DNA from: Geotalea uraniireducens Rf4 | GTDB lineage: Bacteria; Desulfobacterota; Desulfuromonadia; Geobacterales; Geobacteraceae | DNA: 32,000 bases | Direction: 5' to 3' | NCBI RefSeq assembly: GCF_000016745.1 | Contig: NC_009483.1 | Coordinates: 2,280,001 to 2,312,000 of the forward strand | In this document: one piece after another, positions 79 through 32,000 of the stretch | How the letters are laid out: the number at the start of each line of letters is the position of its first letter | Numbering within the stretch: the stretch's first letter is position 1 | Notes under the pieces: generated by a model | Told to the model about the DNA's origin: nothing | What the model saw: the letters and a program-made list of their open reading frames with translations, nothing else | The model's database searches: none | Position numbers and translations under genes: made by a program

Positions 79-267
79 ATAAGTCCCCCCCAGTTTCTCC
101 CCCCTTCATGCTCCTGCCCCGTGCTGTCGCTGCCGCATCGGATAATAATTAGAACGTGAATATTCAGCATGTTACGGCCGAATACCGGTGTATTGTCCTA
201 CATTTGAACACTTTTGGCATGTAACGTGATGTTGTATATGAATAAAACATTCAAGGAAGTGTCATAT

Positions 268-16319: not shown

Positions 16320-16898
16320 ATGAAAAACAAGATTGCAAAGTCGGTGGTGATGATGGTGCTTGCGGTTTTTCTGCTGCCGCTGACGGTACAGAGCGAATTT
16401 TACCAGTATCAGGATGAAAACGGTACGGTCAATTTTACCGATGACCCTGCCAAGATACCGAAGAAATTCAAAAAAAAGAAGAAAATCCGCGATGACGACA
16501 TGAGCGACCCGGAGAGCAAGGAGATGCGGGTCAAGATCAACGGCAACCAGGTACTGGTGCCGGTAACGGTATCCTACCGGGGGAAAGAGGTGAAGGCCAC
16601 CTTCCTCCTCGATACGGGTGCAACCACCTGCACGATCAGCCCGGGTCTTGCCCAACGGCTCAACATCAACCCGAGAGATACGGACGTTTCCATGGCGCAG
16701 GTGGTGGGCGGGGCTGTTCATGCCGTCGGCCACGTCAAGCTCGATTATGTCCTTGTCGGGCCGAACCGGAAATACGAGATAGACGCATCCGTCATTTCGA
16801 GCGGCAAAAACAATGACGGTCTTCTCGGTATGAACTTCCTGAGGGAACTCCGCTACCACATCGACTTCAATTCGCACACGATCCGATGGGGAGATTAG
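16320..16898 (+). CDS. Secreted DUF4124-like plus retropepsin-like (clan AA) aspartic protease
   Basis: A signal peptide is followed by FYQYQDENGTVNFTDDP (DUF4124-like) and a lysine-rich linker. It then has the catalytic LLDTGAT and the C-terminal GLLGMNFL typical of TIGR02281-type retropepsin-like proteins. Confidence 0.7.
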   Translation: MKNKIAKSVVMMVLAVFLLPLTVQSEFYQYQDENGTVNFTDDPAKIPKKFKKKKKIRDDDMSDPESKEMRVKINGNQVLVPVTVSYRGKEVKATFLLDTGATTCTISPGLAQRLNINPRDTDVSMAQVVGGAVHAVGHVKLDYVLVGPNRKYEIDASVISSGKNNDGLLGMNFLRELRYHIDFNSHTIRWGD

Positions 16899-17975: not shown

Positions 17976-18206
17976 GTCCTGTTCTCCTTTCTTTATTTAT
18001 TTCTTTTATAAACGCAGATAGTTGTTTTTGGTTGACAAGGTTTGTTGGGGACGCTGCTGCTCTGAGTTGATATCTTCGGTGGATAAAAGGCGTTTTAATT
18101 AGAGGTTGCCGCCTTCATGGGACAAGTGATATATGTATGTCTGCATGTGGGCCAAACACTAAGCGTGCAGAGAGTGCGGCACGGAAGGAGGGAAAAGCTG
18201 GATTTG

Positions 18207-19790
18207 ATGGTTAAACTGACTGCAATCGTGTTGATCTGCCTGGCAACCACTTGTTTATTTGCCGATACAAAGGCAGACCCTCGTGCTGTCAGGAGCGCAA
18301 ATATTGCGGAGATCAGGAAACTGGCAATTGAGGGTCATGTTGATGCCCAGTTCTATACGGGGTTTATGTATGAAAAAGGGCAGGGCGTACTCCAGGACTA
18401 TGCCGAGGCGGTGAAATGGTATCTGAAAGCGGCCGAGCAGGGGCATGCCGGTGCGCAAATCAATGTCGGCATCATGTATTTCAAGGGGCAGGGGGTATTA
18501 CCGGATTATGCCGAGGCGGCGAAATGGTATCGAAAAGCAGCTCTTCAGGGGAATGCAAACGCTCAATTCAATCTCGGTCTGATGTGCAACAAAGGTCAAG
18601 GGGTATCCCGGGACTATGTCGAGGCGGCGAAATGGTATCTGAAAGCAGCTGAACAGGGGAATAGTGGTGCTCAATTCAATCTCGGTCTGATGTACTACAA
18701 AGGGGACGGGGTTGCACGGAACTTTGCCGAAGCCTTCACATGGTACCGGAAGGCGGCCGAACAGGGGAATGCGGGGGCCCAGTTCAGTCTGGGTTTAATG
18801 TATTATAAAGGTCAAGGAGTGCCGAAGAATTTTGCCGAGGCCGCCGCATGGTATCGTAAGTCTGCTGAGCAGGGGCATGTAGGCGCCCAGTTTAATCTGG
18901 GGTACATGTACGAAATGGAGCAAGGTGCAGTCGGAGGGAATGCCGAAGCGGCAAAATGGTACCGGAAGGCTGCTGAGCAAGGACACGCAGGCGCCCAGTC
19001 TAATCTGGGGTACATTTATGATATCGGAGAAGGGGTGCCCCAGGATCATGCCGAAGCGGCCAAATGGTACAGGAAGGCAGCCGAACAGGGAAATGCCGCT
19101 GCGCAATTAAACCTTGGGATCATGTATGATAATGGTCATGGTATCTCCCAGGACAATGCAGAAGCGGTCAAATGGTATCGCAAGGCTGCGGAACAGGGGG
19201 ATATGACCGCCCAATACAATATGGGAGTCAAGTATGCCAATGGAATCGGCGTGCCGCGCAACAATGCCGAAGCTGTCGAATGGTACCGGAAAGCCGCTGA
19301 CCAGGGGCATGAAATTTCACAGGTCAATCTTGGCCATTTATATGAAAATTCAGACGGCGTACCCCAGGACTATGCGCAAGCACTCAAATGGTATGGTAAG
19401 GCTGCCGAACAGGAAAATAGCGATGCCCAGTTCAGCTTGGGGTTAATGTATGCCAAAGGCCAGGGGACGCCACAGAACTACGCCGAAGCGGCCAAATGGT
19501 ATAGACGGGCGGCTGACCTGGGGAATGAGATTGCGTATTATAATCTGGCAATTCTCTACTATAAAGGTCTGGGTGTGGATCGGGACTATGCCGAAACAGT
19601 AAGATTGCTTAAGGAGGTCGCCGATCAGGAAGATGCAAATGTTCATTTCAGCCTGGGATATATGTATTATAAGGGGCAAGGGGTAATCGAGGACCATGCC
19701 GAAGCTTTGAAATGGTTCAGAAAAGCCGGTGATGAGGGCCTTAAAGAGGCCATGAACTATGTAAATTCAATCGAAAAGAAGGTGAAATGA
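18207..19790 (+). CDS. Secreted Sel1-like repeat (SLR/TPR-like) protein, about 13 tandem 36-aa repeats
   Basis: The repeat unit is AEAAKWYRKAAEQGxAGAQFNLGLMYYKGQGVxxxY. The start is set at ATG 18207, where the signal-like MVKLTAIVLICLATTCLFA begins. The ORF-track start at 18117 adds a non-signal extension. Confidence 0.85.
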   Translation: MVKLTAIVLICLATTCLFADTKADPRAVRSANIAEIRKLAIEGHVDAQFYTGFMYEKGQGVLQDYAEAVKWYLKAAEQGHAGAQINVGIMYFKGQGVLPDYAEAAKWYRKAALQGNANAQFNLGLMCNKGQGVSRDYVEAAKWYLKAAEQGNSGAQFNLGLMYYKGDGVARNFAEAFTWYRKAAEQGNAGAQFSLGLMYYKGQGVPKNFAEAAAWYRKSAEQGHVGAQFNLGYMYEMEQGAVGGNAEAAKWYRKAAEQGHAGAQSNLGYIYDIGEGVPQDHAEAAKWYRKAAEQGNAAAQLNLGIMYDNGHGISQDNAEAVKWYRKAAEQGDMTAQYNMGVKYANGIGVPRNNAEAVEWYRKAADQGHEISQVNLGHLYENSDGVPQDYAQALKWYGKAAEQENSDAQFSLGLMYAKGQGTPQNYAEAAKWYRRAADLGNEIAYYNLAILYYKGLGVDRDYAETVRLLKEVADQEDANVHFSLGYMYYKGQGVIEDHAEALKWFRKAGDEGLKEAMNYVNSIEKKVK

Positions 19791-20339: not shown

Positions 20340-21011
20340 ATGCGCATTTTAGTCGTTGAGGATGAAATTAAAACATCCGCCTTCCTGCGAAAGGGGCTGC
20401 GCGAAAGCGGATTCACCGTTGACGTTGCCAATGATGGCGAAGAAGGGCTCGATCTTGCTCTGAGCAGGGAGTACGACCTGATCATTCTCGATGTCATGCT
20501 TCCGGGGGTCGATGGATGGCAGATAATCAAGAGAATCCGCGGCACAAAGCGGGATACGCCTGTTCTTTTCCTGACGGCACGGGATGCTGTACAAGATCGA
20601 ATCAAGGGGCTGGAGTTGGGCGCAGATGATTATCTGGTCAAACCTTTTGCATTCTCCGAATTACTTGCCCGCATACGCACCATACTCCGCCGCGGCCCGG
20701 TGAGAACCCTGGAGCTGATTCGCATAGCGGATCTTGAAATCGATTTGATGGGTCATAGGGTGATGCGGGGGGGGAAACGGCTCGACTTGACCCCAAAAGA
20801 ATTTGCCCTCCTTTCTCTCCTTGCACGGCGGACAGGGGAGGTCCTTACCAGGACCCGCATTGCGGAACGAATCTGGGATATCGATTTTGAAAGCGATACG
20901 AATGTTGTCGATGTGCATATGCGCCGTCTCCGGGCAAAAGTCGATGATCCGTTCGAGCATAAACTGATTCATACCGTCCGTGGGGTGGGATATGTTCTCG
21001 AAGAGCGATAA
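20340..21011 (+). CDS. OmpR-family response regulator, heavy-metal (CusR/CopR-like) subtype
   Basis: Receiver domain ([26 protein letters not shown]) plus a winged-helix domain ([22 protein letters not shown]...[13 protein letters not shown]...[11 protein letters not shown]). Confidence 0.88.
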
Positions 21012-22461
21012 AGAAACAACGTCTGCTGATCCTGCTCTGCTTCCCTCCAGATCCTGGTCCATTTCACGCCGTTTGATAGCCCACTATTCCCTGTCTGCTT
21101 TCTTAATTTTTAACTTGTCTATCGCTTTAGTCCATCTGGGATTAGTAACCATTACAGAAAAACAGAGTAATCGTTATCTCCAGGATGAAATTAATGTTAT
21201 AGAAAGGCTTTATAAAGCTGGTAATAATTTAAAGCGCCTTGAGCAGAAGTTAGAGGTCGGCTATGCTGCTCGCGAGTTCATGAAAACGTATGCAAGGATT
21301 CTCGATGCAAAAGGTCAGGTAATATTACAAACGCACCTGATGACTAAAGTTGTGCCTGCTACAGTTTTTTCTCAACCCAACGATAGCGGGTATCCTGACA
21401 AAGGTATCAGGTGGAAAGATGAAAACGGTAAAGTGTTTCTTTTGCGATCACTGTGGTTGGACGACGAGGGGGCGAACGGAAACCGGATAATACTTCAGAT
21501 TGCATTGGACATCAGTCACCTGGATCGGATTGTAAAGGATTTCCGTGAAGTCCTTCTGGCCGTAATCATTTTCGGGACTATAATCTCCGCAGTTCTTGCC
21601 GCCATCATTGTCCGCAAGGGGCTGCGTCCACTTAATGAGATAACGGAAAGAACCATGCATATTTCGGCGTATAACCTTGACGAGCGCATGAATATGCCTC
21701 ACTGGCCGAAAGAGGTGAAAACTTTGGCAATAGCGTTCGATGACATGCTCGACCGTTTGCAGGACTCGTTTGACCGACTGTCCAGCTACGTCTCCAATAT
21801 GGCCCACGAATTACGCACGCCGATCAATGTTCTCATGGGTGAAGCGGAGGTGGCCTTGACGAAAGCCAGATCATCCTCGGACTATCGGCGGGTAATCGAA
21901 TCGAATTTGGAAGAATACGGGCGTCTTTCCCGCATCATCGACAGTCTGCTCTTTATTGCCCGCACCGATATAAGAAAATCAACGCTTTTGCGTGAAGAAA
22001 TCATTGTCAGCCAGGAAGTAAAAAAGATTGTGGAATATTACCAGCCACTTGCAGATGATAAGGAGCTAAGCATCACCTGGACGGGAAACGCAACCTTGTC
22101 TGCCGATCCGACCCTGTTCAGGCGAGCGATCAGCAACCTTCTGTCCAATGCCATACATTATACGACTTCAGGCGGTCGCATTGAAATTTCAACCAGGCAG
22201 GCAGACAATCTCTCAATTGAAGTCACCGTGGCCGACACCGGCTGCGGCATGTGTAAAGAAGAGTTGCCGAAAATATTCGACAGATTCTATCGGATCGACG
22301 CCAGCCGCCATGTCCATCCTGAAGGGACAGGTCTTGGCCTTGCCATTGTCAAATCGATCATGGATCTCCACGGCGGAACGGTCAGCATCGAAAGCGAACC
22401 CTCCAAAGGAACTTCCATAACCCTTAAATTTCCCCCGCCAAACATTACGAAATCGTCATAA
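20992..22461 (+). CDS. Heavy-metal-sensor-type histidine kinase (CusS/CopS-like)
   Basis: Two TM segments flank a periplasmic domain, followed by HAMP, the H-box [12 protein letters not shown], and N and G boxes ([21 protein letters not shown]). The start is taken as ATG 20992, overlapping the regulator gene by 20 nt. GTG 20980 is also possible. Confidence 0.88.
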
Positions 22462-22537
22462 AGATGTAACATTATTGAAAGCGCTATTCCGCAAAATTAA
22501 CCCACCCCCTGTGTTAACCCAAGACGAATGGTTTTAC

Positions 22538-22568
22538 AAAATGCCCTGCCTTAGCAGGGCATTTTTTG
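22538..22568 (+). terminator. Rho-independent terminator after the histidine kinase gene
   Basis: AAAATGCCCTGC-CTTA-GCAGGGCAT stem-loop followed by TTTTTGTTT. Confidence 0.8.
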
Positions 22569-22633
22569 TTTACGCCATTTTACCTTAATGAATTCAATAG
22601 CCTGCAAGTAGTCGTGTATCCATGTTTTCGACT

Positions 22634-22649
22634 TGGCACTTCCTATGCT
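22634..22649 (+). promoter_or_regulatory. Candidate sigma54 (-24/-12) promoter TGGCAC-N5-ATGCT upstream of the NHL/omcS cluster
   Basis: In TGGCACTTCCTATGCT, GG (22635-22636) and GC (22647-22648) have the canonical spacing of the TGGCACG-N4-TTGCW consensus. It lies about 80 nt upstream of ATG 22730. No enhancer-binding protein gene is visible in the window. Confidence 0.4.
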
Positions 22650-22729
22650 CTTACCTTTTATGAAACCTGACTAAAACAGTCGATAAATATTAAGCTGTAC
22701 ACACGGATTCCGAACTTTCTGAGGGTCCA

Positions 22730-23698
22730 ATGCGAACCATGGGTGAATTGGTGAACAGAATAAAATACGGTCATCTGCTCCTTTCGACAGTACTAGTTCT
22801 TATTGTGCTTTCTACCCCTGTCTTGGGCGGAGAGATCAAGGCGGATTATCTTTACAAACTTTCGGACTTTACCGGCGTTGTACCCTACAGCTGGGTCCGG
22901 CCGGTCGTTGACAGGAAGACCCATGAGATTTACGTCGCAAACTTCAGTGAACGGTCAATACGGGTGTTTAACGAGAATGGGATGCTGGTTTATGAATTCG
23001 GCGATGACATCAATATCGGCAATCTTTACGACCTGGCAATAGCTGACGACGGGAATATCCTCCTGCTTTCTTATAAGGGGACGGCATACGCATTAACAAA
23101 ATGCAATTTCCGCGGGGAACCCATCTCCACCCTTGAGGTGAGAAACCTCCCTCCATCCTTTTCTAAAGATTTCACCCCTACCGTCATTTTCTACCATGGG
23201 GGGCACATCTACCTGGCGGATAAAGAGGCGATGAAGGTCGTGGTTGCCGACGCCAACGGTGATTTTATCGATGGTTACGATCTGGCAGCCATCCTTGAAT
23301 TCGATGATAAAAAGAAGCAGGATTCCGGCCTGGTCGGCTTCAGCGTGGATAGGGAAGGAAACCTGCTCTTTACCGTTCCCGTTATCTTTCAGGCGTACAT
23401 TGTTTCTCCCGACCGGAAGGTTCGGAGTTTCGGAGCACGGGGGAGCAGTCCGGGCAAGTTCAATATTGTCGGCGGTATCGTAGCTGATGACAAGGGAACT
23501 ATCTACGTTACCGATACCTTGAGATGTGTCGTCATGATCTTCGACAAGGATTTCAACTTCAAGACCGAGTTCGGCTATCGGGGGGGCGCCAAGGATAATC
23601 TGATCTCGCCCATGGAGCTGGCAATCGATGGCGACAGGCTGTATGTAACCCAGAGCAGGAACCGGGGAGTCAGCGTCTTCAGAATCACGGCCAACTGA
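22730..23698 (+). CDS. Secreted NHL-repeat beta-propeller protein
   Basis: An N-terminal signal/anchor is followed by repeated NHL-like blades (e.g. GKFNIVGGIVADDKGTIYVTDTLRCVVMIFDKD, ISPMELAIDGDRLYVTQSRNRGVSVFRI). It has no CXXCH. Confidence 0.8.
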   Translation: MRTMGELVNRIKYGHLLLSTVLVLIVLSTPVLGGEIKADYLYKLSDFTGVVPYSWVRPVVDRKTHEIYVANFSERSIRVFNENGMLVYEFGDDINIGNLYDLAIADDGNILLLSYKGTAYALTKCNFRGEPISTLEVRNLPPSFSKDFTPTVIFYHGGHIYLADKEAMKVVVADANGDFIDGYDLAAILEFDDKKKQDSGLVGFSVDREGNLLFTVPVIFQAYIVSPDRKVRSFGARGSSPGKFNIVGGIVADDKGTIYVTDTLRCVVMIFDKDFNFKTEFGYRGGAKDNLISPMELAIDGDRLYVTQSRNRGVSVFRITAN

Positions 23699-23877
23699 GC
23701 TGTTCCGGCCACTCTTGAACAAAGAAAAAGGAGGTGAAAGACATGAGCGGGTAAAAAGACAAACGGTCATCGGTCAGAAGTAAGCTGTATGAAAGACGTA
23801 AAACAAAGAAAGTGGCAAAAAAACAAGAAAACGGAACAAACCAACTAATCAGTTAAGAAATCAAGGAGATATAACAA

Positions 23878-25134
23878 ATGAAATCATCGAAGATTTTATT
23901 GGCAGCAGCGCTCCTCACCTTTGCAGCGGCCGGCAATGCGCTCGCTTTCCATGACGGCGGCGTTGCAACGTGCGACAGCTGTCATACCATGCACAACTCA
24001 TCCGGCGGTGTAAAGATGACGGTTAACAATCAGGCTACCGGCGCCGGCAACGCATACCTCCTCCAGGGAAGCGACCAGAGCTCCACCTGCCTCAAGTGCC
24101 ACTCTGCCGCTACTTTAGGTAGCTATAAAGTTGCCACCAACCCGATTCCTGCGGCCGGCATTCCACCCGTCCAATTCACCCCGGGCGGCGACTTTTCCTG
24201 GCTGCAGAAAACCTTTGGCACGAGCCTCGGGGAGCGGCATGGTCACAACATCATCGCCGGCGACTTCGGCTATGTGGTTGATGCCAAGTTAGCGACCGCA
24301 CCTGGCGGTTCTTATCCTGCAGCAAACCTTGCCTGCAGCAGCTGTCACGATCCCCACGGCAAGTACAGGATCATGGACGCTGCCGGCACTACCGTTGCTA
24401 CTACCGGCAAGCCCATTTTCGACTCAGGCTCTTACGGAGTACTGCCGACAGCCACTGAGGCAGTTGGCGTTTACCGGCTGCTCGCCGGTGTAGGCTATCA
24501 GCCGGTTTCTTTGAGCGGCAACTTCGCCTTTGCCAACAATGTGCCGATCGCCGTGGCTCCGTCCACTTACAACAGGTCTGAAGCTACTTCCGATACCAGG
24601 GTAGCCTATGGCCAGGGCATGTCCGAGTGGTGTTCCAACTGCCACAGCGGTCTGCATAATGTCAACTATCCGACCAGCCTTATCCACCCTGCAGGCAACG
24701 GCGCCAAGTTTTCTTCCGACATCGTCAACAACTACAACTCCTACAAAGCTTCCGGCGACCTGACCGGGACCATTGCCACCTCCTATTCCTCCATGGTTCC
24801 TTACGAAGAAGGCATTACCGACCTGGCTACCCTGGCAGCCAATGGCGCCACAACTACGGGCATGTCGACCTCCAACAACGTCATGTGTCTCTCCTGCCAC
24901 AGGGCCCACGCATCCGGCTGGGACAGCATGACCAGGTGGAACAACAAGGCTGAATTCCTTACCCTGGCCGGCGTCTATCCCGGCAGCGACTCGGCCAATG
25001 CCGAAGCAGCCGTCACAAAGTATCACGGCGGCAGGACTACAGCTGAAGTTCAGGCGACCTTCTACAACAGACCGGCAACCGCTTATGCCACCTATCAGCG
25101 TTCACTGTGCAACAAGTGTCACGCCAAAGACTAA
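23878..25134 (+). CDS. omcS: OmcS-family secreted hexaheme c-type cytochrome (nanowire subunit homolog)
   Basis: Signal peptide MKSSKILLAAALLTFAAAGNALA. There are six CXXCH motifs (C32, C71, C153, C252, C337, C411). Long blocks match my recollection of G. sulfurreducens OmcS: FH.GGVA.C..CHTMHNS, TAPGG..PA..L.CSSCHDPHGKYR, AVAPSTYNR.EAT..TRVAYGQGMSEWC.NCH, HPAGNGAKF, CLSCHRAHASG.DSMTR, and YQR.LCNKCHAKD at the C-terminus. AAGGAGA RBS. Confidence 0.88.
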   Translation: MKSSKILLAAALLTFAAAGNALAFHDGGVATCDSCHTMHNSSGGVKMTVNNQATGAGNAYLLQGSDQSSTCLKCHSAATLGSYKVATNPIPAAGIPPVQFTPGGDFSWLQKTFGTSLGERHGHNIIAGDFGYVVDAKLATAPGGSYPAANLACSSCHDPHGKYRIMDAAGTTVATTGKPIFDSGSYGVLPTATEAVGVYRLLAGVGYQPVSLSGNFAFANNVPIAVAPSTYNRSEATSDTRVAYGQGMSEWCSNCHSGLHNVNYPTSLIHPAGNGAKFSSDIVNNYNSYKASGDLTGTIATSYSSMVPYEEGITDLATLAANGATTTGMSTSNNVMCLSCHRAHASGWDSMTRWNNKAEFLTLAGVYPGSDSANAEAAVTKYHGGRTTAEVQATFYNRPATAYATYQRSLCNKCHAKD

Positions 25135-25178
25135 GGTGGTCATGGCGTAACAATGGGATTTTCCTGCAATGCTTGACT

Positions 25179-25208
25179 GGGGCCGGCTTTATGCCGGCCC
25201 TGCTTTTC
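25179..25208 (+). terminator. Intrinsic terminator-like hairpin directly after the cytochrome gene (probable attenuator within the cluster)
   Basis: GGGCCGGC-TTTAT-GCCGGCCC stem followed by TGCTTTTC, about 45 nt after the stop. Confidence 0.65.
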
Positions 25209-25378
25209 AAAAGAATCATAACCGATGCTGCGTATATTAGATTGTTCCAATAAGTGTGTTAGACTTTTTTCACACTGCATCACGAAAGTTTTCAGCCGGT
25301 TTTCAGTTTATGCCGAGGCGGGTCGGTACAGCTCTACGCCTTCACATTGTCATTGGAGATACGAACGTGACTGCTGAA

Positions 25379-26791
25379 ATGAGGTTGCCACTGAAAAGCC
25401 TGCATGCAATTATTGTCGCTTTTGTCTTCATCTCAGGGTGCCAAACCCTCCCGTCTTATGTAAAACAACCCCTGGCAGAAAATGGTGAACTATATCTCTA
25501 TCTACAGCCGCTTCCACAGGAAGCGGATCGTCTTAGTTTCGCGCTGGCAGGGATTTCAGCGACAAATAAAGACGGAAGCGACTTCCCGCTGATGCTTGAG
25601 CTGAAAGATTTGCGAGGGAGTGATGCGCAGCGTCAACGATTTCTTGCCGTCGGCCGGTTGCCGGCTGGAGATTACACGGGCATCTCATTCAAGGTCAACA
25701 AGGCAACGTTGAAAACCGAGGATGGCGAAGCTTCTCTCGCGATCCCCGAGAGCGCGGTCAGAACCGATGTCTCCTTTACGGTGAACAAGAAGAAGGCTTT
25801 ACTTATAACCTTGACATTGAACTATAAAAATTCGCTCAGGGACGAAGTGAAATTCAGCCCTCTGTTTTCCACCAAAATCCCGGGCAAACCTGTGCCGGGT
25901 CTGGTGGGTTATGTCTCAAATTATGCCGATAATTCGCTTACCGTCGTTGACAAGCAATCCATGCTGGTGACCGGAATAATAGCGACGGGGCGCGGTCCGA
26001 AGGGAATGGCCTTTGACCAGCTGCGACGAAAGGCTTACGTGGCCATTTCCGAGGAAGATGCCATCGAGGTTGTCGATATCCCCACCGGCGAAGTTCTCAA
26101 CAGGATATCTCTCAACACCGGCGACAACCCGCAGGAACTTGCGCTATCCCCTGATGGAAGAACCCTGGTCTCAACCAATGCCGGAACGAACAGCGTAAGT
26201 ATTATCGATCCTGTTTCATTTTTTGAAACCGGCAGGGTCAATGTGGGAGACGGTCCGTCCTCCATTCTGATCGATCCCACCGGGAAAAGGGCATACGTCT
26301 TCAATACCCTTGCCAATACCATTTCCGTCATAGATCTCTCCAAACGGGCGATCGTTTCGACCATCGTCACCGAACCATGGCCTGTGAGAGGACAGTTCAA
26401 CAGAAGCGGGGATGCACTTTACGTAATTCAGAGACTGAGTTCTTACCTGACGGTCTTAAACCCCGCTTCACTCGTCGTTACGAAGCGCAAATATATTGGA
26501 ACGGGAGCCAATGCCGTCAAGGTTGACAGTAATACCGATCAAATCTACGTGGGGAAACAGTATGAACCCTGGCTGGCGGTTTACGACCCGTTTTCCTTTC
26601 TTCCCGGCGACTCGATCAAGGCAGGAAGCGACAACGCCTATCTGACCATCGATGGAGAAGGAAACAACCTCTGTGTGGTAGACGCCGGAAGAAAGTCCCT
26701 TTTGTTCATTAACCTTGTGAGCAGAAAAGTTGTCGGCGAGATCGATGTGGGAGAAGCCCCCTACTGGGTTTCATTGATGGGGGAGAGGTAA
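25379..26791 (+). CDS. Lipoprotein with N-terminal beta-sandwich (DUF4382-like) domain and YVTN-type beta-propeller
   Basis: MRLPLKSLHAIIVAFVFISGC carries a lipobox. Repeated YVTN/YncE-like blades are present (NSLTVVD, GPKGMAFD..KAYVA, AIEVVD, NPQELALSPDGRTLVSTN, NSVSIID, TISVIDL...). The start is ATG 25379 or GTG 25367; the ORF-track start at 25256 adds a non-signal extension. There is no CXXCH motif. Confidence 0.8.
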   Translation: MRLPLKSLHAIIVAFVFISGCQTLPSYVKQPLAENGELYLYLQPLPQEADRLSFALAGISATNKDGSDFPLMLELKDLRGSDAQRQRFLAVGRLPAGDYTGISFKVNKATLKTEDGEASLAIPESAVRTDVSFTVNKKKALLITLTLNYKNSLRDEVKFSPLFSTKIPGKPVPGLVGYVSNYADNSLTVVDKQSMLVTGIIATGRGPKGMAFDQLRRKAYVAISEEDAIEVVDIPTGEVLNRISLNTGDNPQELALSPDGRTLVSTNAGTNSVSIIDPVSFFETGRVNVGDGPSSILIDPTGKRAYVFNTLANTISVIDLSKRAIVSTIVTEPWPVRGQFNRSGDALYVIQRLSSYLTVLNPASLVVTKRKYIGTGANAVKVDSNTDQIYVGKQYEPWLAVYDPFSFLPGDSIKAGSDNAYLTIDGEGNNLCVVDAGRKSLLFINLVSRKVVGEIDVGEAPYWVSLMGER

Positions 26792-26798
26792 GTAGCTC

Positions 26799-29036
26799 GT
26801 GCATTACGCAAAAATCAGTTGTTCCCGTATTTCTCTTGTTCGGGTGTTGTTTTTGATGGTTTTGGTTATTGGATGTTTGCCGGGTAGTGCTGAAGCAGAT
26901 TCATTCAACGGCTTCTTTGAATGGAATTATACGAATGTTGATTCCACAACCAACAACAGTGCCAACGAAATGACAAAAAACAAATCCGACAATTTCAACC
27001 AGCGATACAGCCTCTCACTGGACAAGAGCCTGTTTCCCACGCTCCGTCTGGTAACAAGCGGCATCTTTGAAAAAGATATGAGCTGGATCACCACCAATGA
27101 CAGCAAGTCAGATACATCGGTGACGACTCTGCGTCCATCGGTCGATCTTACCCTCAATACCCTCCTCTATACTGCAGGAATCGGCTACAACCGGAGGGAT
27201 GAAACCTCGAAAACATCGGGCACACCCGATTCAACCGCGATCAACGAGGATTTTCACGCACTGTTCGGCTGGAGGCCGGTTGGTCTGCCCAAGGTAGACC
27301 TGCTGTTGACCAGGTCGAATACCTTCGACGCGAGTCGGCTTCTCCGCGACTCAACCAATGACAGGGTATTGCTCAGCATGAGATATTTGCCGCTCAAGTC
27401 GCTCGATCTCAAGTACCAGGGGGTCTATAGCGATGCAACGGACAGGCTGCAAGGGTTTGAGTCCCGGGAATTAACCAACAGCGGGCGGTTCACCTATTCT
27501 GACCAGTTTTTCAAACAGCGGCTGTTAGTGAATACCACGTATAATGTAACCCGGCAGGACACCAAGACCTTCACGACAGGCGCCGGCGAAATTCCTATCC
27601 AGCTCTTTCCGTTCAACGGCTTGTATGCTCCGAGCGATACCCCGGCAGTGGCGGCGCTCGCTTCATTCCCAGCCCTGATAAACGGTGATGCTGCCACATC
27701 GGCCGGCATCGATTCGCTTGGGGTTCCGACACCGGGCAACGGTGAAACCAGACCGAGAAACATTGGTGTTGATTTTGTTAACCCTACAGAGGTCAATACC
27801 CTCTTCGTCTTTGTTGATCGTGATCTTCCCCCGGGTATCGCCAACTTTTTTTCCTGGGATGTCTATACGACTTCAGAAGACCCCGGATCGGGAAATCCTG
27901 AATGGACCTTGGTGAAAACCATTGCGGCTGCACCTTTTACCCCGTTTCTCAACAGTTTTCGCTTTCAGATCGACTTTCCAAACGTGACTGCCCGGGCTGT
28001 GAAAGTTGTCGTCACACCCCTGACGCCGGTTGCCGCTGCACTTACGCCGACCTTTCAGAATCCCGACAGGATATTCGTTACGGAGGTTCAGGCTTATATC
28101 AGAAAATCGGCAAATGAGGTGAAAGGGGATGCCGGCAGAACTTCGCACATTTACAACATGGACGTAAAAGCAAGATTGCTTGATGTCCTCGCGCTCTATT
28201 ACGACGGGTCGTTTTTTTTCACCCGCACGTCTCCATCTTCCACAACGCGCTACACCCTCTCGAACGGTCTTCACCTGGATCATACCTTCAACGACATGAT
28301 ATCGGGGAGCAGCCGCGTGGCACGGGAAGACGACGAAGAGCCGGACGGCCACAGGGTGTCGTACCTGTACAGCGCTTCCCTGAAAGCGGTTCCTGTAAAA
28401 ACATTGAGTCATACCCTGATTTACAGCGGCCGTAACGAGGCGATCAGCGGAAAAACAAAAAACACCAACTCCCTCACCCTTTACAATTATGCCGAATTGT
28501 ACAAGGGGCTCAACCTCAACCTATCCGGCGGGGCAACCTTCGTTACCACCGAAACGGGAGTGAAAGAGGAAAACTACAACGTTGTCTTCGGCGCCAACAT
28601 TGTCCCCAACAAGACCTTGAGCATGAACGTCAACTATACGTTCAACAAAACCAACACCACCGGCGGGTTAACGAGTCAAGCTACCGGTTTGTTTCAGCAG
28701 CGGGCGGAACTCAACGCAACGTTCAGACCGTTCGCCACCCTCTACCTGTTCGCTTCTTTGGGGATGGTGGACCAGGACAGTAAAACCGATACCCTGATGA
28801 ATTACGGCGCCAACTGGTCTCCGTTCCCGGACGGCACCATTCAGTTCAATTTCTCATACAATGAGAGCCTGAGAACCCAGGATAACTCGAAGATACGACT
28901 GATTACACCCAGCCTTTCCTGGAAGGTGACAAGCTATAGCCTGCTTGATGTTGCTTACGCGTTTACGACCTCTGATTCAATCACTCAAACGGTTGATTCA
29001 AAGATATTCAACGTGAATTACAAAATATTCTTTTAG
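26799..29036 (+). CDS. Predicted outer-membrane beta-barrel protein with central discoidin/galactose-binding-like insert
   Basis: GTG start with GGGGGAGAGG upstream, and a signal peptide ending AEA. The N- and C-terminal thirds show alternating-hydrophobicity strands rich in Y/N/T/S, and the protein ends ...VNYKIFF (aromatic terminus typical of OMPs). The middle (about aa 285-435) reads like an F5/8-type-C jelly roll (NIGVDF..PTEVNTLFVFV....FSWDVYTSEDPG..W......F.IDFP.VTARAVKVVV...IFVTEVQAY). Confidence 0.7.
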   Translation: MHYAKISCSRISLVRVLFLMVLVIGCLPGSAEADSFNGFFEWNYTNVDSTTNNSANEMTKNKSDNFNQRYSLSLDKSLFPTLRLVTSGIFEKDMSWITTNDSKSDTSVTTLRPSVDLTLNTLLYTAGIGYNRRDETSKTSGTPDSTAINEDFHALFGWRPVGLPKVDLLLTRSNTFDASRLLRDSTNDRVLLSMRYLPLKSLDLKYQGVYSDATDRLQGFESRELTNSGRFTYSDQFFKQRLLVNTTYNVTRQDTKTFTTGAGEIPIQLFPFNGLYAPSDTPAVAALASFPALINGDAATSAGIDSLGVPTPGNGETRPRNIGVDFVNPTEVNTLFVFVDRDLPPGIANFFSWDVYTTSEDPGSGNPEWTLVKTIAAAPFTPFLNSFRFQIDFPNVTARAVKVVVTPLTPVAAALTPTFQNPDRIFVTEVQAYIRKSANEVKGDAGRTSHIYNMDVKARLLDVLALYYDGSFFFTRTSPSSTTRYTLSNGLHLDHTFNDMISGSSRVAREDDEEPDGHRVSYLYSASLKAVPVKTLSHTLIYSGRNEAISGKTKNTNSLTLYNYAELYKGLNLNLSGGATFVTTETGVKEENYNVVFGANIVPNKTLSMNVNYTFNKTNTTGGLTSQATGLFQQRAELNATFRPFATLYLFASLGMVDQDSKTDTLMNYGANWSPFPDGTIQFNFSYNESLRTQDNSKIRLITPSLSWKVTSYSLLDVAYAFTTSDSITQTVDSKIFNVNYKIFF

Positions 29037-29067: not shown

Positions 29068-29658
29068 ATGAAGCGCTTAAGGTGTGAAATGAAACGTATT
29101 GTCAGTACAGTCGTCCTTGCCGTTATTTATGTTGCGACAATCGGCTGCGCAACTCCTGCCGAGATTTTCCGCGACCCGAACATGGATTTCGGATCGATCC
29201 GCTCCGTTGCCGTGTTGCCGTTCGCAAACCTTACCCGCGACAATCAGGCTGCCGACAGGGTACGGGATGTTTTTTCCCATATGCTGCTGGCAACCGGGGC
29301 CATTTACGTGGTACCTGCCGGCGAAGTCGTCCGTGGCATCTCCCGGGTGGGCATTGCCAATCCTGCAGCACCGTCTCCGGAGGATATCACGAAGCTGGCC
29401 GGCATCATCAAGGTGGATGCGGTTGTTACCGGGGTTGTCAGGGAATACGGAGAGGTCAGGTCGGGAAGCTCTGGTGCGAATATCATCTCCCTGAGCCTCC
29501 AGATGATCGAAACCCAGACAGGGCGAATAGTCTGGACAGCCTCTGCTACGAAAGGCGGTATCGGCATGTCGGAGCGACTTTTGGGCGGCGGCGGCGAACC
29601 AATGAACAAGATTACCGAACAGGCAGTAAATGAACTTATCGATAAGCTTTTTCAATAG
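29068..29658 (+). CDS. Lipoprotein, GNA1162/DUF799/LpoB-like single module
   Basis: Lipobox VATIGC. The pattern IRSVAVLPFANLT....A..V......L...G.YVVP ... KVDAVVTGVVREYG ... LQMIETQTGRIVW is typical of that fold family. An alternative start is ATG 29089. Confidence 0.7.
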   Translation: MKRLRCEMKRIVSTVVLAVIYVATIGCATPAEIFRDPNMDFGSIRSVAVLPFANLTRDNQAADRVRDVFSHMLLATGAIYVVPAGEVVRGISRVGIANPAAPSPEDITKLAGIIKVDAVVTGVVREYGEVRSGSSGANIISLSLQMIETQTGRIVWTASATKGGIGMSERLLGGGGEPMNKITEQAVNELIDKLFQ

Positions 29659-30754
29659 AACGATCCTGTTGTTTGCGGTCATCTGCTTTCTTGCCGGGTG
29701 TGCACGGACAACGGCAGCATTGCGGGCCGAGGAGCAGCCTGGCAAGGGGAACCGCTGCATTGCCGTACTGCCCGTGGAAAACCTGAGCGGTACGGCAGTT
29801 CCCCTGAAAAGCATCCGCCAGTCGCTGGTGGAGAAAATGGGTAAGCTGGGGATGTGCACCCTTGACGAAAAAACAGTCGACGATTTTATGGCCCATCACC
29901 GCATGCGCTACACAGGGGGCATTGACAAGGAATTATCCCGGGCATTCAAGACCGAAACCGGGGCAGCAGCCGTGCTCATCACTTCGCTGGAACTGTACAG
30001 CGACGTAAATCCGCCCAAGGTGGCATTGGCATGCCGTCTGGTCTCAACGGGAGAAAATCCGGTTATTCTCGGGATCGATTCTGTTGCCTTGTCCGGTGAC
30101 GACTCACCCGGCTTGCTCGGGCTCGGCCTGATAGAAAAACCGGGCGAGCTTATGGATAATGCCCTTAATCGCATCTCGGCATCCCTTTATCGTCAATTTG
30201 AAGGGGTAAACGACATGAACGTCAGCCAACCGTGGATGAAAAAATTCAAGCCCAGGATATCTTACCGTTCGCCGAGCCTGGATATGGAACAGAAGCATAC
30301 CATTGCGGTCATTCCGTTCCTTAATAAGAGTGGCCGCAAGAATGCCGGAGAGATTTTGGCGCTCCAGTTTGTCGAACAACTGGCAAAGATGAAAAAATTC
30401 AACGTAATCGAACCGGGTATCGTTCGCCAGGAATTCCTGAAATTCAGGATCATCATGGAAGGGGGGGTCTCCCTTGCCAATGCCGATGTCATTTTCACCG
30501 ACCTGGATGCCGACCTGATCTTCACCGGGGAGGTAATGGATTATCAGGACTATCAAGGCGCCATGGGCACCCCCACGGTCGGTTTTTCAATTATCGTGCT
30601 GGACAGAAAAAGCCGGGAAGTTGTCTGGGCCTCTGAAAGTTACAACGATGGTGATGACAGGGTCTACTTTTTCGATGTGGGAAAAGTAAAGACCGCCGAA
30701 GCAATGGCCTCTCAAATGACCCATGCGGTGGTGGATATGATGACGATAAAATAA
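29630..30754 (+). CDS. Lipoprotein with two tandem GNA1162/DUF799/LpoB-like modules
   Basis: Lipobox FLAGC. Module 1 starts CIAVLPVENLSG and module 2 starts TIAVIPFLNKSG, each followed by the ...DL(I/V)FTG.V/LITSLELY... and ...VVW motifs. It overlaps the preceding gene by 29 nt. Confidence 0.7.
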   Translation: MNLSISFFNRTILLFAVICFLAGCARTTAALRAEEQPGKGNRCIAVLPVENLSGTAVPLKSIRQSLVEKMGKLGMCTLDEKTVDDFMAHHRMRYTGGIDKELSRAFKTETGAAAVLITSLELYSDVNPPKVALACRLVSTGENPVILGIDSVALSGDDSPGLLGLGLIEKPGELMDNALNRISASLYRQFEGVNDMNVSQPWMKKFKPRISYRSPSLDMEQKHTIAVIPFLNKSGRKNAGEILALQFVEQLAKMKKFNVIEPGIVRQEFLKFRIIMEGGVSLANADVIFTDLDADLIFTGEVMDYQDYQGAMGTPTVGFSIIVLDRKSREVVWASESYNDGDDRVYFFDVGKVKTAEAMASQMTHAVVDMMTIK

Positions 30755-30814: not shown

Positions 30815-32000
30815 ATGAAACGGATTGCCAGGGTATCAGAAATTTGTTTGATCAGCTTGTTGCTTACCGGAACTGTCGGTTTCGCAGCCGACCAGAAGGA
30901 GTTGCCTGCAATTGTCAAAGAGGACGTGAAAGAGGGTGCTGTCCCGGTTGCAGAGACACAAATTACCTTGAAGGTGCCTCTTTTTTCGCCGCTTTTTGCC
31001 TCTTTTCCCGTGGCAACGGTAGGTGACGAGCAGGTAACACTCGATGAGCTCAATAAATCCCTTGCAGCGCTCCATGAAAGGGCGGGTGAGGATAAAACTG
31101 CCGGCAGGAAAAAGTACGTCACGGTCCTCAATCGGCTCATCAACAGCAGACTGATCGTCCAGGAAGCAGAGAGCATGGGGCTTGAAGAGTTGCCGGAAGT
31201 GAAGCAGAAGCTGGACGATTTCCCCAGGATGGCCTTGAAGGAAGAGTTGAAAGACCTGCAGATAAAGAGTCTGCAACCCGATGCAACTGAAGTGGAGAAA
31301 TACTACAAGGAAGCGGTCAAGGAATGGAAGATAAAATCGGTAAAATTCGAGAAAGAGGATGATGCGAAAGAGCTGGCGCGGACAGTTCAAGCCGGCGGCA
31401 ATTTCGATGAACTGGTCAATACGCTTATTGACAGCGGTAAGGCTACGGGAACCAAGGAGGGGGAGTACGTAAAGGCCAGGGATCTTCTTCCCCAGGTGGC
31501 GAACGTCGTAGCAGGAATGCGGGCCGGTTCGGTGAGCCCGGTTATCCAGGTAGGGCCGTCTTATGCGATCTTCAAGCTTGAAGACGTGCGCTATCCTGCC
31601 GGCAATGCCGAGGCGCAGGACGCGGCACGGGAGCAGGCACTCGCCATGAAGCAGATCGAGGCTCTTGCTGCGTACAACAAGTCGCTGACCAAAAAATATG
31701 CAAAAATCAATCAGAAACTTCTGGATAAACTGGATTTCGAGGCTGCAAAACCGGGATTCGCTCAACTCTTAAAGGACAGAAGGGTTGTCGTGGAGATCAA
31801 GGGGGACAAGCCGATAACGGTTGCCGATATGGCGGAATCCCTCAGCCAGAAGTTCTTCCACGGTATTGATGAGGCGATCAAGGGGAAGAGAATTAACGAG
31901 CAGAAGATGTCTGCCCTTTATGACATATTTTATGCCAGGCTGTATCTCAAGGAAGCGAAAAAACTGGGAATTGACAAGACCGGGCATTACAAAGACAGGA
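30815..32000 (+). CDS. SurA/PpiD-like periplasmic chaperone with parvulin-type PPIase-like domain (3' end outside window)
   Basis: This gene is not in the ORF track because it has no stop in the window. I translated it by hand from ATG 30815 (AAAAGGGAG upstream): MKRIARVSEICLISLLLTGTVGFAADQKE...VTLDELNKSLAALHE...LINSRLIVQEAESMGL...WKIKSVKFEKEDDAKELARTVQAGGNFDELV...GSVSPVIQVGPSYAIFKLEDV... It is open for 395 codons to position 32000. Confidence 0.8.
   Translation, partial: MKRIARVSEICLISLLLTGTVGFAADQKELPAIVKEDVKEGAVPVAETQITLKVPLFSPLFASFPVATVGDEQVTLDELNKSLAALHERAGEDKTAGRKKYVTVLNRLINSRLIVQEAESMGLEELPEVKQKLDDFPRMALKEELKDLQIKSLQPDATEVEKYYKEAVKEWKIKSVKFEKEDDAKELARTVQAGGNFDELVNTLIDSGKATGTKEGEYVKARDLLPQVANVVAGMRAGSVSPVIQVGPSYAIFKLEDVRYPAGNAEAQDAAREQALAMKQIEALAAYNKSLTKKYAKINQKLLDKLDFEAAKPGFAQLLKDRRVVVEIKGDKPITVADMAESLSQKFFHGIDEAIKGKRINEQKMSALYDIFYARLYLKEAKKLGIDKTGHYKDR

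What the first reader, a model, noticed from the sequence alone, without database searches (positions are those of the whole stretch)
23878..25134. Cytochrome retains the OmcS polymerisation hallmark: a His at mature position 16 in CHTMH
If signal peptidase cleaves after ALA (residue 23), the mature protein starts FHDGGVATCDSCHTMHN. The second His of CHTMH is then mature residue 16.

As I recall the 2019 cryo-EM OmcS filament structures, His16 of one subunit ligates heme 5 of the neighbouring subunit, and that drives polymerisation. Six CXXCH motifs plus 9 additional His are enough for six bis-His hemes. The C-terminal YQRSLCNKCHAKD is nearly identical to my memory of OmcS. Together these argue the protein is a filament former rather than a soluble multiheme cytochrome.
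Basis: partly seen in the sequence, partly recalled or inferred. Interest (0 to 1): 0.75.

Follow-up and report, generated by a model that had tools for sequence, protein, structure and literature searches.

The report
OmcS-type cytochrome nanowire subunit gene
This gene encodes a close relative of OmcS, the six-heme cytochrome that Geobacter polymerises into conductive "nanowires", and it sits in the usual cluster of OmcS helper genes, so it is a good but expected new member of a known, widespread family.

Summary
ORF 23878-25134 (+) encodes a 418-aa precursor with a Sec signal peptide and six CXXCH motifs. It aligns end to end with the cryo-EM OmcS chain (6EF8, E=2.4e-133, about 58% identity). 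Precursor residue 24 aligns with OmcS mature residue 1, so the second His of CHTMH is mature His16.

All 12 family-invariant His are present: six in the CXXCH motifs and six others. An AlphaFold model (pLDDT 89.9) matches 6EF8 at TM 0.86-0.89.

The gene lies in a complete, syntenic OmcS-companion (osc) cluster: NHL protein, OmcS-like, OscD, OscE, OscF, OscG and OscH homologues. That order recurs in most of 83 related loci.

His16 alone does not discriminate. It is also kept in the paralogues OmcT and OscC. Across 125 family genes, however, it is the one axial-type His lost as a group (7 genes). None of those 7 sits upstream of osc genes.

The most likely reading is a secreted nanowire subunit that polymerises through His16 binding heme 5 of its neighbour. 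Filament formation itself is inferred, not shown.

Novelty is low. OmcS homologues and the osc machinery are already described as widespread, and Geotalea daltonii carries an 81% identical gene in the same arrangement.

The parts
23878..25134 (+). omcS-like gene: 418-aa precursor of a hexaheme c-type cytochrome of the OmcS family
   Evidence: ORF. PDB phmmer to OmcS 6EF8 E=2.4e-133 over the full length. 56% identity to Geobacter OmcS and 81% to the Geotalea daltonii 6-heme cytochrome. AF2 pLDDT 89.9; Foldseek 6ef8_A TM 0.86/0.89.
23862..23868 (+). ribosome-binding site AAGGAGA, 9 nt before the ATG
   Evidence: Read from the sequence. It supports the ATG at 23878 over the TTG at codon 8 used by the gene caller for P0001.
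23878..23946 (+). Sec signal peptide (23 codons, MKSSKILLAAALLTFAAAGNALA). Cleavage after ALA gives a mature N-terminus FHDGG
   Evidence: Precursor residue 24 aligns with residue 1 of the deposited OmcS chain. The n/h/c regions and AXA motif are read from the sequence. The cleavage site is inferred, not predicted with SignalP.
23971..23985 (+). CXXCH motif 1 (CDSCH, heme 1)
23992..23994 (+). codon of His39, which is mature His16, the putative ligand of heme 5 in the neighbouring subunit
   Evidence: Aligns with OmcS His16. Invariant in 123/123 close homologues and 118/125 family genes in related loci. All 7 genes lacking it are outside osc clusters.
24088..24102 (+). CXXCH motif 2 (CLKCH)
24334..24348 (+). 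CXXCH motif 3 (CSSCH), followed by the invariant distal-type His160 (DPH)
24631..24645 (+). CXXCH motif 4 (CSNCH)
24886..24900 (+). CXXCH motif 5 (CLSCH, heme 5, the heme expected to receive His16 of the next subunit), followed by the invariant His344
   Evidence: Heme 5 takes a ligand from the neighbouring subunit according to Filman et al..
25108..25122 (+). CXXCH motif 6 (CNKCH) in the OmcS-like C-terminus YQRSLCNKCHAKD
25179..25201 (+). GC-rich hairpin (GGGGCCGGC-UUUAU-GCCGGCCCU, then GCUUUUC) 45 nt after the stop codon. Probable terminator or attenuator, or a 3' stabiliser, between the subunit gene and the helper genes
   Evidence: Fold. A hairpin occurs at the same position, with a different sequence, in G. 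daltonii (with a U-tract), L006, the Geobacter omcS locus L001 and Geomonas L009. It narrowly misses the T-run rule of the terminator scan.
22634..22649 (+). sigma-54 type -24/-12 promoter-like motif TGGCACTTCCTATGCT, 81 nt upstream of the NHL gene
   Evidence: The only strict match in the 32-kb window on either strand. 19 of 54 related loci have such a motif within 400 nt upstream of the NHL gene, against 0.0076 expected per stretch.
22730..23698 (+). NHL-repeat protein, homologue of the gene directly upstream of omcS in Geobacter (315 aa, 40% identity)
   Evidence: Pfam NHL; blastp; conserved upstream position in 62/83 loci.
25256..26791 (+). OscD-like YncE/YVTN beta-propeller protein. The true start may be near 25310, as called in L004
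   Evidence: Pfam YNCE; 45% identity to the Geobacter OscD-position protein; present in 67/83 loci; for the start.
26799..29036 (+). OscE-like 745-aa protein with no Pfam domain, a signal peptide and a C-terminal ...KIFF. Probable outer-membrane beta-barrel (inference)
   Evidence: 39% identity to the Geobacter 718-aa OscE-position protein; 65/83 loci; no Pfam, NCBIfam or PDB sequence match.
29068..29658 (+). OscF-like GNA1162/PelC-like lipoprotein
   Evidence: Pfam GNA1162-like; 66% identity to Geobacter OscF-position protein; PDB PelC 9h80_C E=4.2e-5.
29630..30754 (+). OscG-like 374-aa lipoprotein (lipobox LAGC), weakly related to OscF and PelC
   Evidence: Sequence. The homologue at the same position in G. 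daltonii is 62% identical. PelC E=0.018.
30815..32000 (+). OscH-like SurA/PpiC-type peptidyl-prolyl isomerase. The ORF runs off the end of the window
   Evidence: Translation; Pfam Rotamase_2/SurA_N; full 585-aa gene in L004; 54/83 loci.
20340..22461 (+). OmpR-type response regulator (20340-21011) and HAMP/HisKA sensor kinase (20980-22461) upstream, ending at a strong terminator 22538-22565. Candidate regulators of the cluster
   Evidence: Pfam; terminator; the same pair precedes the cluster in G. daltonii (87% and 63% identity) and several other loci.

Best explanation
The gene encodes the structural subunit of an OmcS-type cytochrome nanowire in an uncultured Geotalea-like bacterium (Geobacteraceae).

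Shown here:
- It is a full-length, roughly 58% identical homologue of OmcS, with six c-type heme-attachment motifs in the same order.
- It has all 12 family-invariant His, which is enough for six bis-His hemes.
- Its predicted fold is that of OmcS.
- It sits at the head of a conserved osc (OmcS companion) gene cluster.

Inferred mechanism:
1. The precursor is exported by Sec and cleaved after Ala23.
2. Six hemes are attached in the periplasm.
3. The PPIase OscH assists folding.
4. The subunit crosses the outer membrane through OscE/F/G, with OscD shaping the filament (roles as attributed to Shen et al. 2025 in PMC13194489).
5. Subunits polymerise head to tail, because the N-terminal arm places mature His16 as the sixth ligand of heme 5 in the next subunit. 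This gives a continuous heme chain for extracellular electron transfer.

Transcription probably starts at a sigma-54-type promoter upstream of the NHL gene. A hairpin after the subunit gene probably sets a high ratio of subunit to helper proteins.
For: - **Homology:** PDB phmmer to OmcS, E=2.4e-133, over residues 24-418 versus 1-407.
- **Fold:** Foldseek 6ef8_A E=1.5e-47, TM 0.86/0.89, from an AF2 model with pLDDT 89.9.
- **Axial ligands:** the 12 invariant His (OmcS 2, 13, 16, 51, 110, 144, 147, 243, 257, 332, 335, 404) are all present. The non-invariant OmcS His (53, 63, 139, 309) are not needed.
- **Synteny:** matches to Geobacter GSU2505-like 40%, OscD 45%, OscE 39%, OscF 66%. The G. daltonii locus is fully collinear through OscG, OscH and beyond. 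The cluster order is conserved in 67/83 loci from Geobacterales, Nitrospirota, Anaeromyxobacter, Rokubacteria and others.
- **Copy number:** it is the only multiheme cytochrome ORF in the window.
- **His16 and osc adjacency:** the counts are 91 with His16 next to osc, 13 with His16 and no osc, 0 without His16 next to osc, and 4 without His16 and no osc (Fisher p=4e-4).
- **Literature:** the OmcS filament has one His ligand donated across the subunit interface to the fifth heme.
- **Phylogeny:** a rough NJ tree puts the protein with the single-copy, first-position cluster genes, as sister to the OmcS+OmcT clade and not with OscC.
Against: - No filament has been seen for this protein. No other family member has a solved structure; only OmcS itself matched in the PDB.
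- His16 is also conserved in OmcT and OscC, which are not known to me to polymerise.
- The physiological role, and even the in-vivo occurrence, of OmcS filaments is disputed. It has been argued that the OmcS homologue of G. uraniireducens does not support long-range transport (PMC6771412; PMC11077965).
- Interface residues other than His16 could not be checked, because no coordinates were available.
- The protein lacks two OmcS surface loops, of about 7 and 4 residues.
- The His16/osc association counts related sequences, not independent events. One of the six search patterns used to collect the loci contained CHTMH, which enriches for His16.
Confidence: 0.75

Rival explanations
1. It is an OmcS-family hexaheme cytochrome that stays monomeric, or only loosely associated, on the outer surface or in the periplasm. 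It would act as a terminal reductase or electron shuttle, not as a polymer. His16 would be a family relic or would bind a heme within the same molecule.
For: His16 is kept in essentially the whole family, including the paralogues OmcT and OscC, so it is not proof of polymerisation. Published arguments hold that OmcS homologues and filaments are not needed for long-range transport. No solved filament exists for any homologue.
Against: The protein is full length, has the OmcS fold and carries all 12 ligand His. It is directly coupled to the OscD-H genes proposed to fold, secrete and shape OmcS filaments. The only family members that have lost His16 lie outside osc clusters, which suggests His16 is selected together with the assembly genes.
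Confidence: 0.18
2. It is an accessory or minor OmcS-like protein (OmcT- or OscC-like, for example a nucleator, cap or periplasmic donor). The main filament subunit would then be encoded elsewhere in the genome.
For: Geobacter clusters carry up to three OmcS-family genes with unresolved division of labour. Identities to OmcS, OmcT and OscC are not far apart: 56%, 51% and 51%.
Against: It is the only OmcS-family gene in this cluster and window. It occupies the first position, as omcS does. It is closest to OmcS, and in the NJ tree it groups with single-copy cluster genes as sister to OmcS+OmcT, far from the OscC clade. The single-copy arrangement is the commonest across the loci.
Confidence: 0.05

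Closest known systems
OmcS (GSU2504) of Geobacter sulfurreducens, the cytochrome nanowire subunit (PDB 6EF8, 6NEF)
   Same: Hexaheme protein with the same order and spacing of six CXXCH motifs and the same 12 His. The mature N-terminus is FHxGGVAxCxxCHTMHNS and the C-terminus is YQRxLCNKCHAKD. About 58% identity over the mature protein, and the predicted fold matches at TM 0.86-0.89. Preceded by an NHL-repeat gene and followed by osc genes.
   Different: Shorter: 395 versus 407 mature residues, lacking about 7 residues after OmcS position 94 and about 4 around position 309. OmcS His53, 63, 139 and 309 are absent. The cluster has no OmcT, OscB (spermine-synthase-like) or OscC between the subunit gene and OscD. 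The upstream regulator is OmpR-type rather than a sigma-54 activator. No structure or filament is shown.
Geotalea daltonii FRC-32 'cytochrome c, 6 heme-binding sites' (P0002, CP001390) and the gene in MAG MFD03638.bin.2.1 (L006)
   Same: 81% and 88% identical respectively. Gene order is identical: response regulator, kinase, NHL, OmcS-like, OscD, OscE, OscF, OscG, OscH. These are the true orthologues.
   Different: Both carry an 8-12 residue longer loop after the FSWLQKTF segment. Neither has been characterised experimentally, as far as I could find.
OmcT (GSU2503) and OscC (GSU2501), OmcS paralogues inside the Geobacter osc cluster
   Same: Same family, six CXXCH motifs, His16 and the other invariant His conserved; 51% identity.
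   Different: They occupy second and later positions in the cluster. The window protein is closer to OmcS and branches outside the OscC clade.
OmcE and OmcZ cytochrome filaments
   Same: OmcE also uses a His from the neighbouring subunit to ligate a heme. All three are extracellular heme polymers.
   Different: No detectable sequence similarity: only OmcS was hit in the PDB at E<=0.01, and Foldseek found no other match. OmcZ lacks inter-subunit coordination.

Membership tests
OmcS family of hexaheme nanowire cytochromes | Full-length sequence homology to OmcS | tested here: met
   phmmer versus PDB, E=2.4e-133, residues 24-418 versus 1-407 of 6EF8; 56% identity by blastp to Geobacter OmcS.
OmcS family of hexaheme nanowire cytochromes | Six CXXCH heme-attachment motifs, collinear with those of OmcS | tested here: met
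   Motifs at residues 32, 71, 153, 252, 337 and 411, each aligned to an OmcS motif; Cys and His are invariant in 123 sequences.
OmcS family of hexaheme nanowire cytochromes | Six distal His completing bis-His ligation of all hemes | tested here: met
   The six non-motif His that are invariant in the family (OmcS 2, 16, 110, 147, 257, 335) are all present as H25, H39, H123, H160, H270 and H344. Which His pairs with which heme was not checked against coordinates.
OmcS family of hexaheme nanowire cytochromes | His at mature position 16 (CHTMH), the inter-subunit ligand of heme 5 in the neighbouring subunit | tested here: met
   It aligns with OmcS His16. Its role as the inter-subunit ligand comes from memory of Wang et al. 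2019. It is supported indirectly (one ligand, to heme 5, comes from the neighbouring subunit) and (the only one of the 12 His lost as a group, and only outside osc clusters).
OmcS family of hexaheme nanowire cytochromes | Sec signal peptide cleaved to give the N-terminus F-H-x-G-G | tested here: met
   The n/h/c regions, ALA|F site and alignment of residue 24 to residue 1 of the deposited OmcS chain. No SignalP run and no N-terminal sequencing.
OmcS family of hexaheme nanowire cytochromes | OmcS fold (mostly loops wrapped around a heme stack) | tested here: met
   AF2 pLDDT 89.9, pTM 0.86, little regular secondary structure; Foldseek 6ef8_A TM 0.86/0.89, rmsd 3.5 Å over 413 columns. The model has no hemes.
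OmcS family of hexaheme nanowire cytochromes | Conservation of the subunit-subunit interface residues | not testable with these tools
   No access to 6EF8 coordinates or to multimer prediction. I can only say that the N-terminal arm (16 of 21 residues identical) and the heme-5 segment NVxCLSCHRAHASGxDSMTRxN (19 of 22 identical) are highly conserved.
OmcS family of hexaheme nanowire cytochromes | Forms micrometre-long filaments | not testable with these tools
   Needs expression and EM.
osc (OmcS companion) gene cluster | Subunit gene followed by OscD (beta-propeller), OscE, OscF, OscG (lipoproteins) and OscH (PPIase), and preceded by an NHL-repeat gene | tested here: met
   blastp to the Geobacter locus gives 40-66% identity. 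Collinear with G. daltonii, including OscG and OscH. Pfam YNCE, GNA1162-like and Rotamase. Names and roles are as summarised in PMC13194489; the original paper (Shen et al. 2025) was not available.
osc (OmcS companion) gene cluster | OmcT, OscB and OscC present, as in G. sulfurreducens | tested here: not met
   No second cytochrome and no spermine-synthase-like ORF in the window. The compact form is the commonest across the 83 loci, so these genes look like Geobacter-specific additions rather than defining features.
OmcE / OmcZ filament cytochromes | Sequence or fold similarity | tested here: not met
   Only OmcS was recovered, by sequence and by fold.

The most novel reading that the evidence does not exclude
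His16 together with direct adjacency to oscD-H may work as a genomic predictor of which OmcS-family cytochromes polymerise. Family members that have lost the His16 arm, including 7-heme variants, would be a monomeric side branch. This window would then represent the minimal, probably ancestral, one-subunit nanowire module: NHL, OmcS, OscD-H, a sigma-54 promoter and a post-subunit hairpin. Such a module could be moved as one roughly 9.5-kb cassette for heterologous nanowire production.
Probability: 0.4. Interest if true: 0.45.

Novelty: new member of a known kind. Interest (0 to 1): 0.3.

Why it matters
If the protein polymerises, this uncultured Geotalea-like bacterium joins the organisms predicted to build OmcS-type cytochrome nanowires for extracellular electron transfer to minerals, electrodes or partner cells. 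Its compact single-subunit cluster would be a simpler template than the G. sulfurreducens locus for reconstituting assembly. This is incremental, however. OmcS homologues and the osc machinery have already been reported as widespread (Portela et al. 2024, PMC10954620; Shen et al. 2025 as cited in PMC13194489), and a cultured relative, G. daltonii, has the same locus.

Tried and rejected
1. **Riboswitch search.** I looked for a riboswitch, for example a GEMM-type second-messenger element of the kind known upstream of some Geobacter cytochrome genes. Rfam at gathering thresholds found nothing in the whole window. An E-value search of 22400-25400 found nothing upstream of the cytochrome gene.
2. 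**RsmY hit.** A sub-threshold RsmY match at 22540-22657 (-), 37.7 bits against a gathering score of 57, was considered as a CsrA-sponge sRNA. I think it is more likely a chance composite. Its 3' hairpin is the bidirectional terminator of the kinase gene, and its conserved GGA hairpin is the reverse complement of a sigma-54 -24/-12 motif on the + strand. The element is absent from the G. daltonii intergenic region.
3. **Citation for His16.** I tried to find a citable statement that OmcS His16 ligates heme 5 of the neighbouring subunit. Four full-text searches and several papers gave only the general statement. Wang et al. 2019 (PMC6720112), Wang et al. 2022 (PMC9357133) and Shen et al. 2025 (PMC11845295) are not held.
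4. **NCBIfam.** It has no OmcS-specific model; only generic multiheme hits appeared, below the cut-offs.
5. **Sigma-70 promoter.** The consensus scan found no + strand promoter in the 180-bp gap before the gene.
6. **Antisense ORFs.** The ORFs over the gene (24424-25026 -) and over the OscH-like gene (30836-31765 -) have no family support and were treated as spurious.
7. **Fused-dimer prediction.** I did not attempt one.
Full report
**Observation**

The ATG is preceded at 9 nt by AAGGAGA. The product starts MKSSKILLAAALLTFAAAGNALA|FHDGGVATCDSCHTMHN. It has six CXXCH motifs (residues 32, 71, 153, 252, 337, 411) and 15 His, of which 9 lie outside the motifs.

A phmmer search of all PDB sequences returned one distinct sequence, OmcS of Geobacter sulfurreducens (6EF8/6NEF). 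The E-value was 2.4e-133, over precursor residues 24-418 against OmcS 1-407. Because the deposited chain begins at that Phe, precursor F24 aligns with OmcS residue 1. The second His of CHTMH (H39) therefore aligns with OmcS His16. The C-terminal 13 residues differ from OmcS at one position. The cleavage site rests on this alignment and the AXA rule; SignalP was not available.

**What the protein is**

The protein is 56% identical to a Geobacter OmcS by blastp, and about 58% over aligned mature positions. It is 51% identical to each of the paralogues OmcT and OscC from the same Geobacter locus.

More than 5,000 database proteins match at E<=1e-10. The exact sequence occurs only in two Logan read-assemblies. 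The nearest named protein is the 'cytochrome c, 6 heme-binding sites' of Geotalea daltonii FRC-32, at 81%. The nearest species-representative genome is the MAG MFD03638.bin.2.1, at 88%.

An AlphaFold2 model built on 95 homologues has mean pLDDT 89.9 and pTM 0.86, with very little regular secondary structure, as described for OmcS (for OmcS). Foldseek against the PDB finds only 6ef8_A (E=1.5e-47, TM 0.86/0.89). The least confident part of the mature model is the N-terminal arm that carries His16 (pLDDT 45-75 for residues 21-60). That would fit a segment that packs against another subunit, but this is weak evidence.

**Axial ligands**

Among 123 close homologues, 95 in the tool alignment and 125 family genes taken from 83 genomic loci, the same 12 His are invariant or nearly so. 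In OmcS numbering they are 13, 51, 144, 243, 332 and 404 in the CXXCH motifs, plus 2, 16, 110, 147, 257 and 335 outside them.

Twelve is exactly the number needed for six bis-His hemes. Filman et al. state that all 12 axial ligands of OmcS are His, with 11 from the same subunit and one, on the fifth heme, from the neighbouring subunit.

The window protein has all 12: H25, 36, 39, 75, 123, 157, 160, 256, 270, 341, 344 and 415. The OmcS His that it lacks (53, 63, 139, 309) are variable across the family and cannot be ligands.

I could not find it stated in the held literature.

**Is His16 a hallmark?**

Not by itself. It is conserved in OmcT and OscC as well and in 123/123 close homologues.

The wider set gave an informative result. 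Seven of the 125 family genes lack His16 and have a shortened arm after the first CXXCH. By contrast, each of the other 11 His is missing in at most two sequences, and those absences are scattered rather than grouped.

None of the seven lies upstream of osc genes. Among genes whose surroundings could be judged, the counts were:

| | next to osc genes | not next to osc genes |
|---|---|---|
| His16 present | 91 | 13 |
| His16 absent | 0 | 4 |

Fisher's exact test gives p=4e-4.

So His16 is the one axial-type His that is lost as a group, and it is lost only where the assembly genes are absent. That is what one expects of a ligand that serves polymerisation rather than intramolecular heme binding.

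There are two caveats. The sequences are related, so they are not independent events. One of the six search patterns used to collect the loci contained CHTMH, which enriches for His16.

**Gene context**

This is the strongest added evidence. The neighbours of the window gene match the neighbours of omcS in a Geobacter genome (locus L001):

| Window coordinates | Product | Geobacter counterpart | Identity |
|---|---|---|---|
| 22730-23698 | NHL-repeat protein | 315-aa protein upstream of omcS | 40% |
| 25256-26791 | YncE-type beta-propeller | OscD position | 45% |
| 26799-29036 | 745-aa protein, no known domain | OscE position | 39% |
| 29068-29658 | GNA1162-like lipoprotein | OscF position | 66% |

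Two further genes follow. The first is a 374-aa lipoprotein at 29630-30754. The second is a SurA/PpiC-type isomerase that starts at 30815 and runs off the window. They correspond to OscG and OscH in the fully collinear G. daltonii locus and in the Logan contig L004.

A secondary source (PMC13194489) summarises Shen et al. 2025 as proposing OscH for OmcS folding, OscE/F/G for secretion and OscD for filament morphology.

The order NHL, OmcS (one to three copies), OscD, E, F, G, H recurs in most of the 83 loci. These come from Geobacterales, Nitrospirota, Anaeromyxobacter, Myxococcales, Thermodesulfovibrionia and Rokubacteria.

The window has the compact, commonest form, with one subunit gene and no OmcT, OscB or OscC. 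No other CXXCH-containing ORF exists in the 32 kb. A rough NJ tree places the protein with the G. daltonii and MAG orthologues, among single-copy first-position genes. That group is sister to the small OmcS+OmcT clade and distant from the OscC clade. The protein is therefore co-orthologous to OmcS and OmcT.

**Regulatory anatomy (partly followed up)**

- **Terminator.** A strong terminator at 22538-22565 closes the upstream OmpR-type two-component genes.
- **Promoter.** The only strict sigma-54 -24/-12 motif in the window, TGGCACTTCCTATGCT at 22634-22649, lies 81 nt before the NHL gene (its first base is 96 nt upstream). Nineteen of 54 related loci have such a motif in the equivalent 400 nt, against 0.0076 expected.
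- **Post-gene hairpin.** Forty-five nucleotides after the cytochrome stop codon there is a 9-bp GC hairpin followed by GCUUUUC (25179-25208). A hairpin at the same place but with a different sequence occurs in G. daltonii (with a full U-tract), L006, the Geobacter omcS locus and a Geomonas locus. This suggests termination or attenuation that raises subunit expression over helper expression, as in pilus operons. That reading is an inference.

**Mechanism and confidence**

I consider it essentially certain that this is an OmcS-family hexaheme cytochrome with six bis-His hemes. I put the probability at about 0.75 that it is the polymerising subunit of a cytochrome nanowire assembled with the adjacent osc products through His16 binding heme 5 of the neighbouring subunit.

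The main rival (about 0.18) is a non-polymerising outer-surface cytochrome. His16 is family-wide, no homologue filament has been solved, and the physiological role of OmcS filaments is contested. An accessory OmcT/OscC-like role is unlikely (about 0.05), given copy number, position and tree placement.

**Novelty**

This is a new member of a known kind. OmcS homologues and the osc machinery have been published as widespread (citing Shen et al. 2025), and a cultured relative carries the same locus. What is modestly new here is the link between His16 loss and absence of the osc genes, together with the sigma-54 motif and the hairpin. These are leads, not established facts.

Noticed in passing
window 22634-22649 (+): Sigma-54 type -24/-12 motif TGGCACTTCCTATGCT, 81 nt upstream of the NHL gene that heads the cluster. 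It is the only strict match in the window. Similar motifs occur upstream of the NHL gene in 19 of 54 related loci (expected 0.0076). The adjacent regulator here is OmpR-type, not a sigma-54 activator as in the Geobacter locus L001.
   Followed up: partly
window 22540-22657 (-): Sub-threshold Rfam RsmY match (37.7 bits, gathering score 57, E about 7e-7 for 3 kb) in the kinase/NHL intergenic region. It has several GGA motifs. It overlaps the kinase terminator hairpin and the reverse complement of the sigma-54 motif, and is not conserved in G. daltonii. It is probably not an sRNA, but this is not excluded.
   Followed up: partly
window 25179-25208 (+); L003 about 11334-11370; L006 about 11297-11322; L001 about 11336-11365; L009 about 11404-11430: A GC-rich hairpin is conserved in position, but not in sequence, about 30-50 nt downstream of the OmcS-like stop codon in five loci. 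It is a probable terminator or attenuator between the subunit gene and the helper genes.
   Followed up: partly
window 29068-29658 and 29630-30754 (+): The OscF-like lipoprotein matches PelC, the lipoprotein ring of the Pel polysaccharide export complex (9h80_C, E=4.2e-5), as well as GNA1162. The OscG-like lipoprotein matches PelC weakly (E=0.018) and OscF weakly. With the 745-aa OscE-like probable beta-barrel, this suggests a PelB/PelC-like outer-membrane export architecture for the cytochrome subunit.
   Followed up: partly
L019 7927(-), L035 1154(-), L038 4213(-), L068 3183(-), L066 6125(+), L077 10055(+), L080 1384(+): These OmcS-family paralogues lack His16 and the roughly 20-residue arm after the first CXXCH. 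Two of them (L038, L068) carry a seventh, N-terminal CXXCH. None lies upstream of osc genes. They are a possible non-polymerising branch of the family.
   Followed up: partly
window 23878 versus 23899: The public gene call for the identical protein (P0001, 411 aa) starts at a TTG at codon 8. The ATG at 23878 has a good RBS, gives a proper positively charged n-region, and matches the G. daltonii N-terminus.
   Followed up: yes
window 24150-24200 and about 24840 (protein residues about 112 and 322): Relative to OmcS, the protein lacks a roughly 7-residue loop (OmcS TWNVRGL, after residue 94) and about 4 residues near OmcS 309-312. The G. daltonii orthologue retains the first loop. The filament surface would differ there.
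   Followed up: no
window 18117-19790 (+): A 557-aa protein made almost entirely of Sel1 repeats (13 repeats, E=1e-139) lies just upstream of the two-component genes. Its function is unknown.
   Followed up: no
window 16320-16898 (+): A 192-aa protein combines DUF4124 with a retropepsin-like aspartyl protease domain. It follows an SbcD/SbcC pair (10587-15496) and a methyltransferase.
   Followed up: no
window 214-831 and 2710-3498 (+): A dual-specificity/PTP-like phosphatase domain protein and an ADP-ribosylglycohydrolase lie at the far left of the window. They are unrelated to the cytochrome cluster.
   Followed up: no
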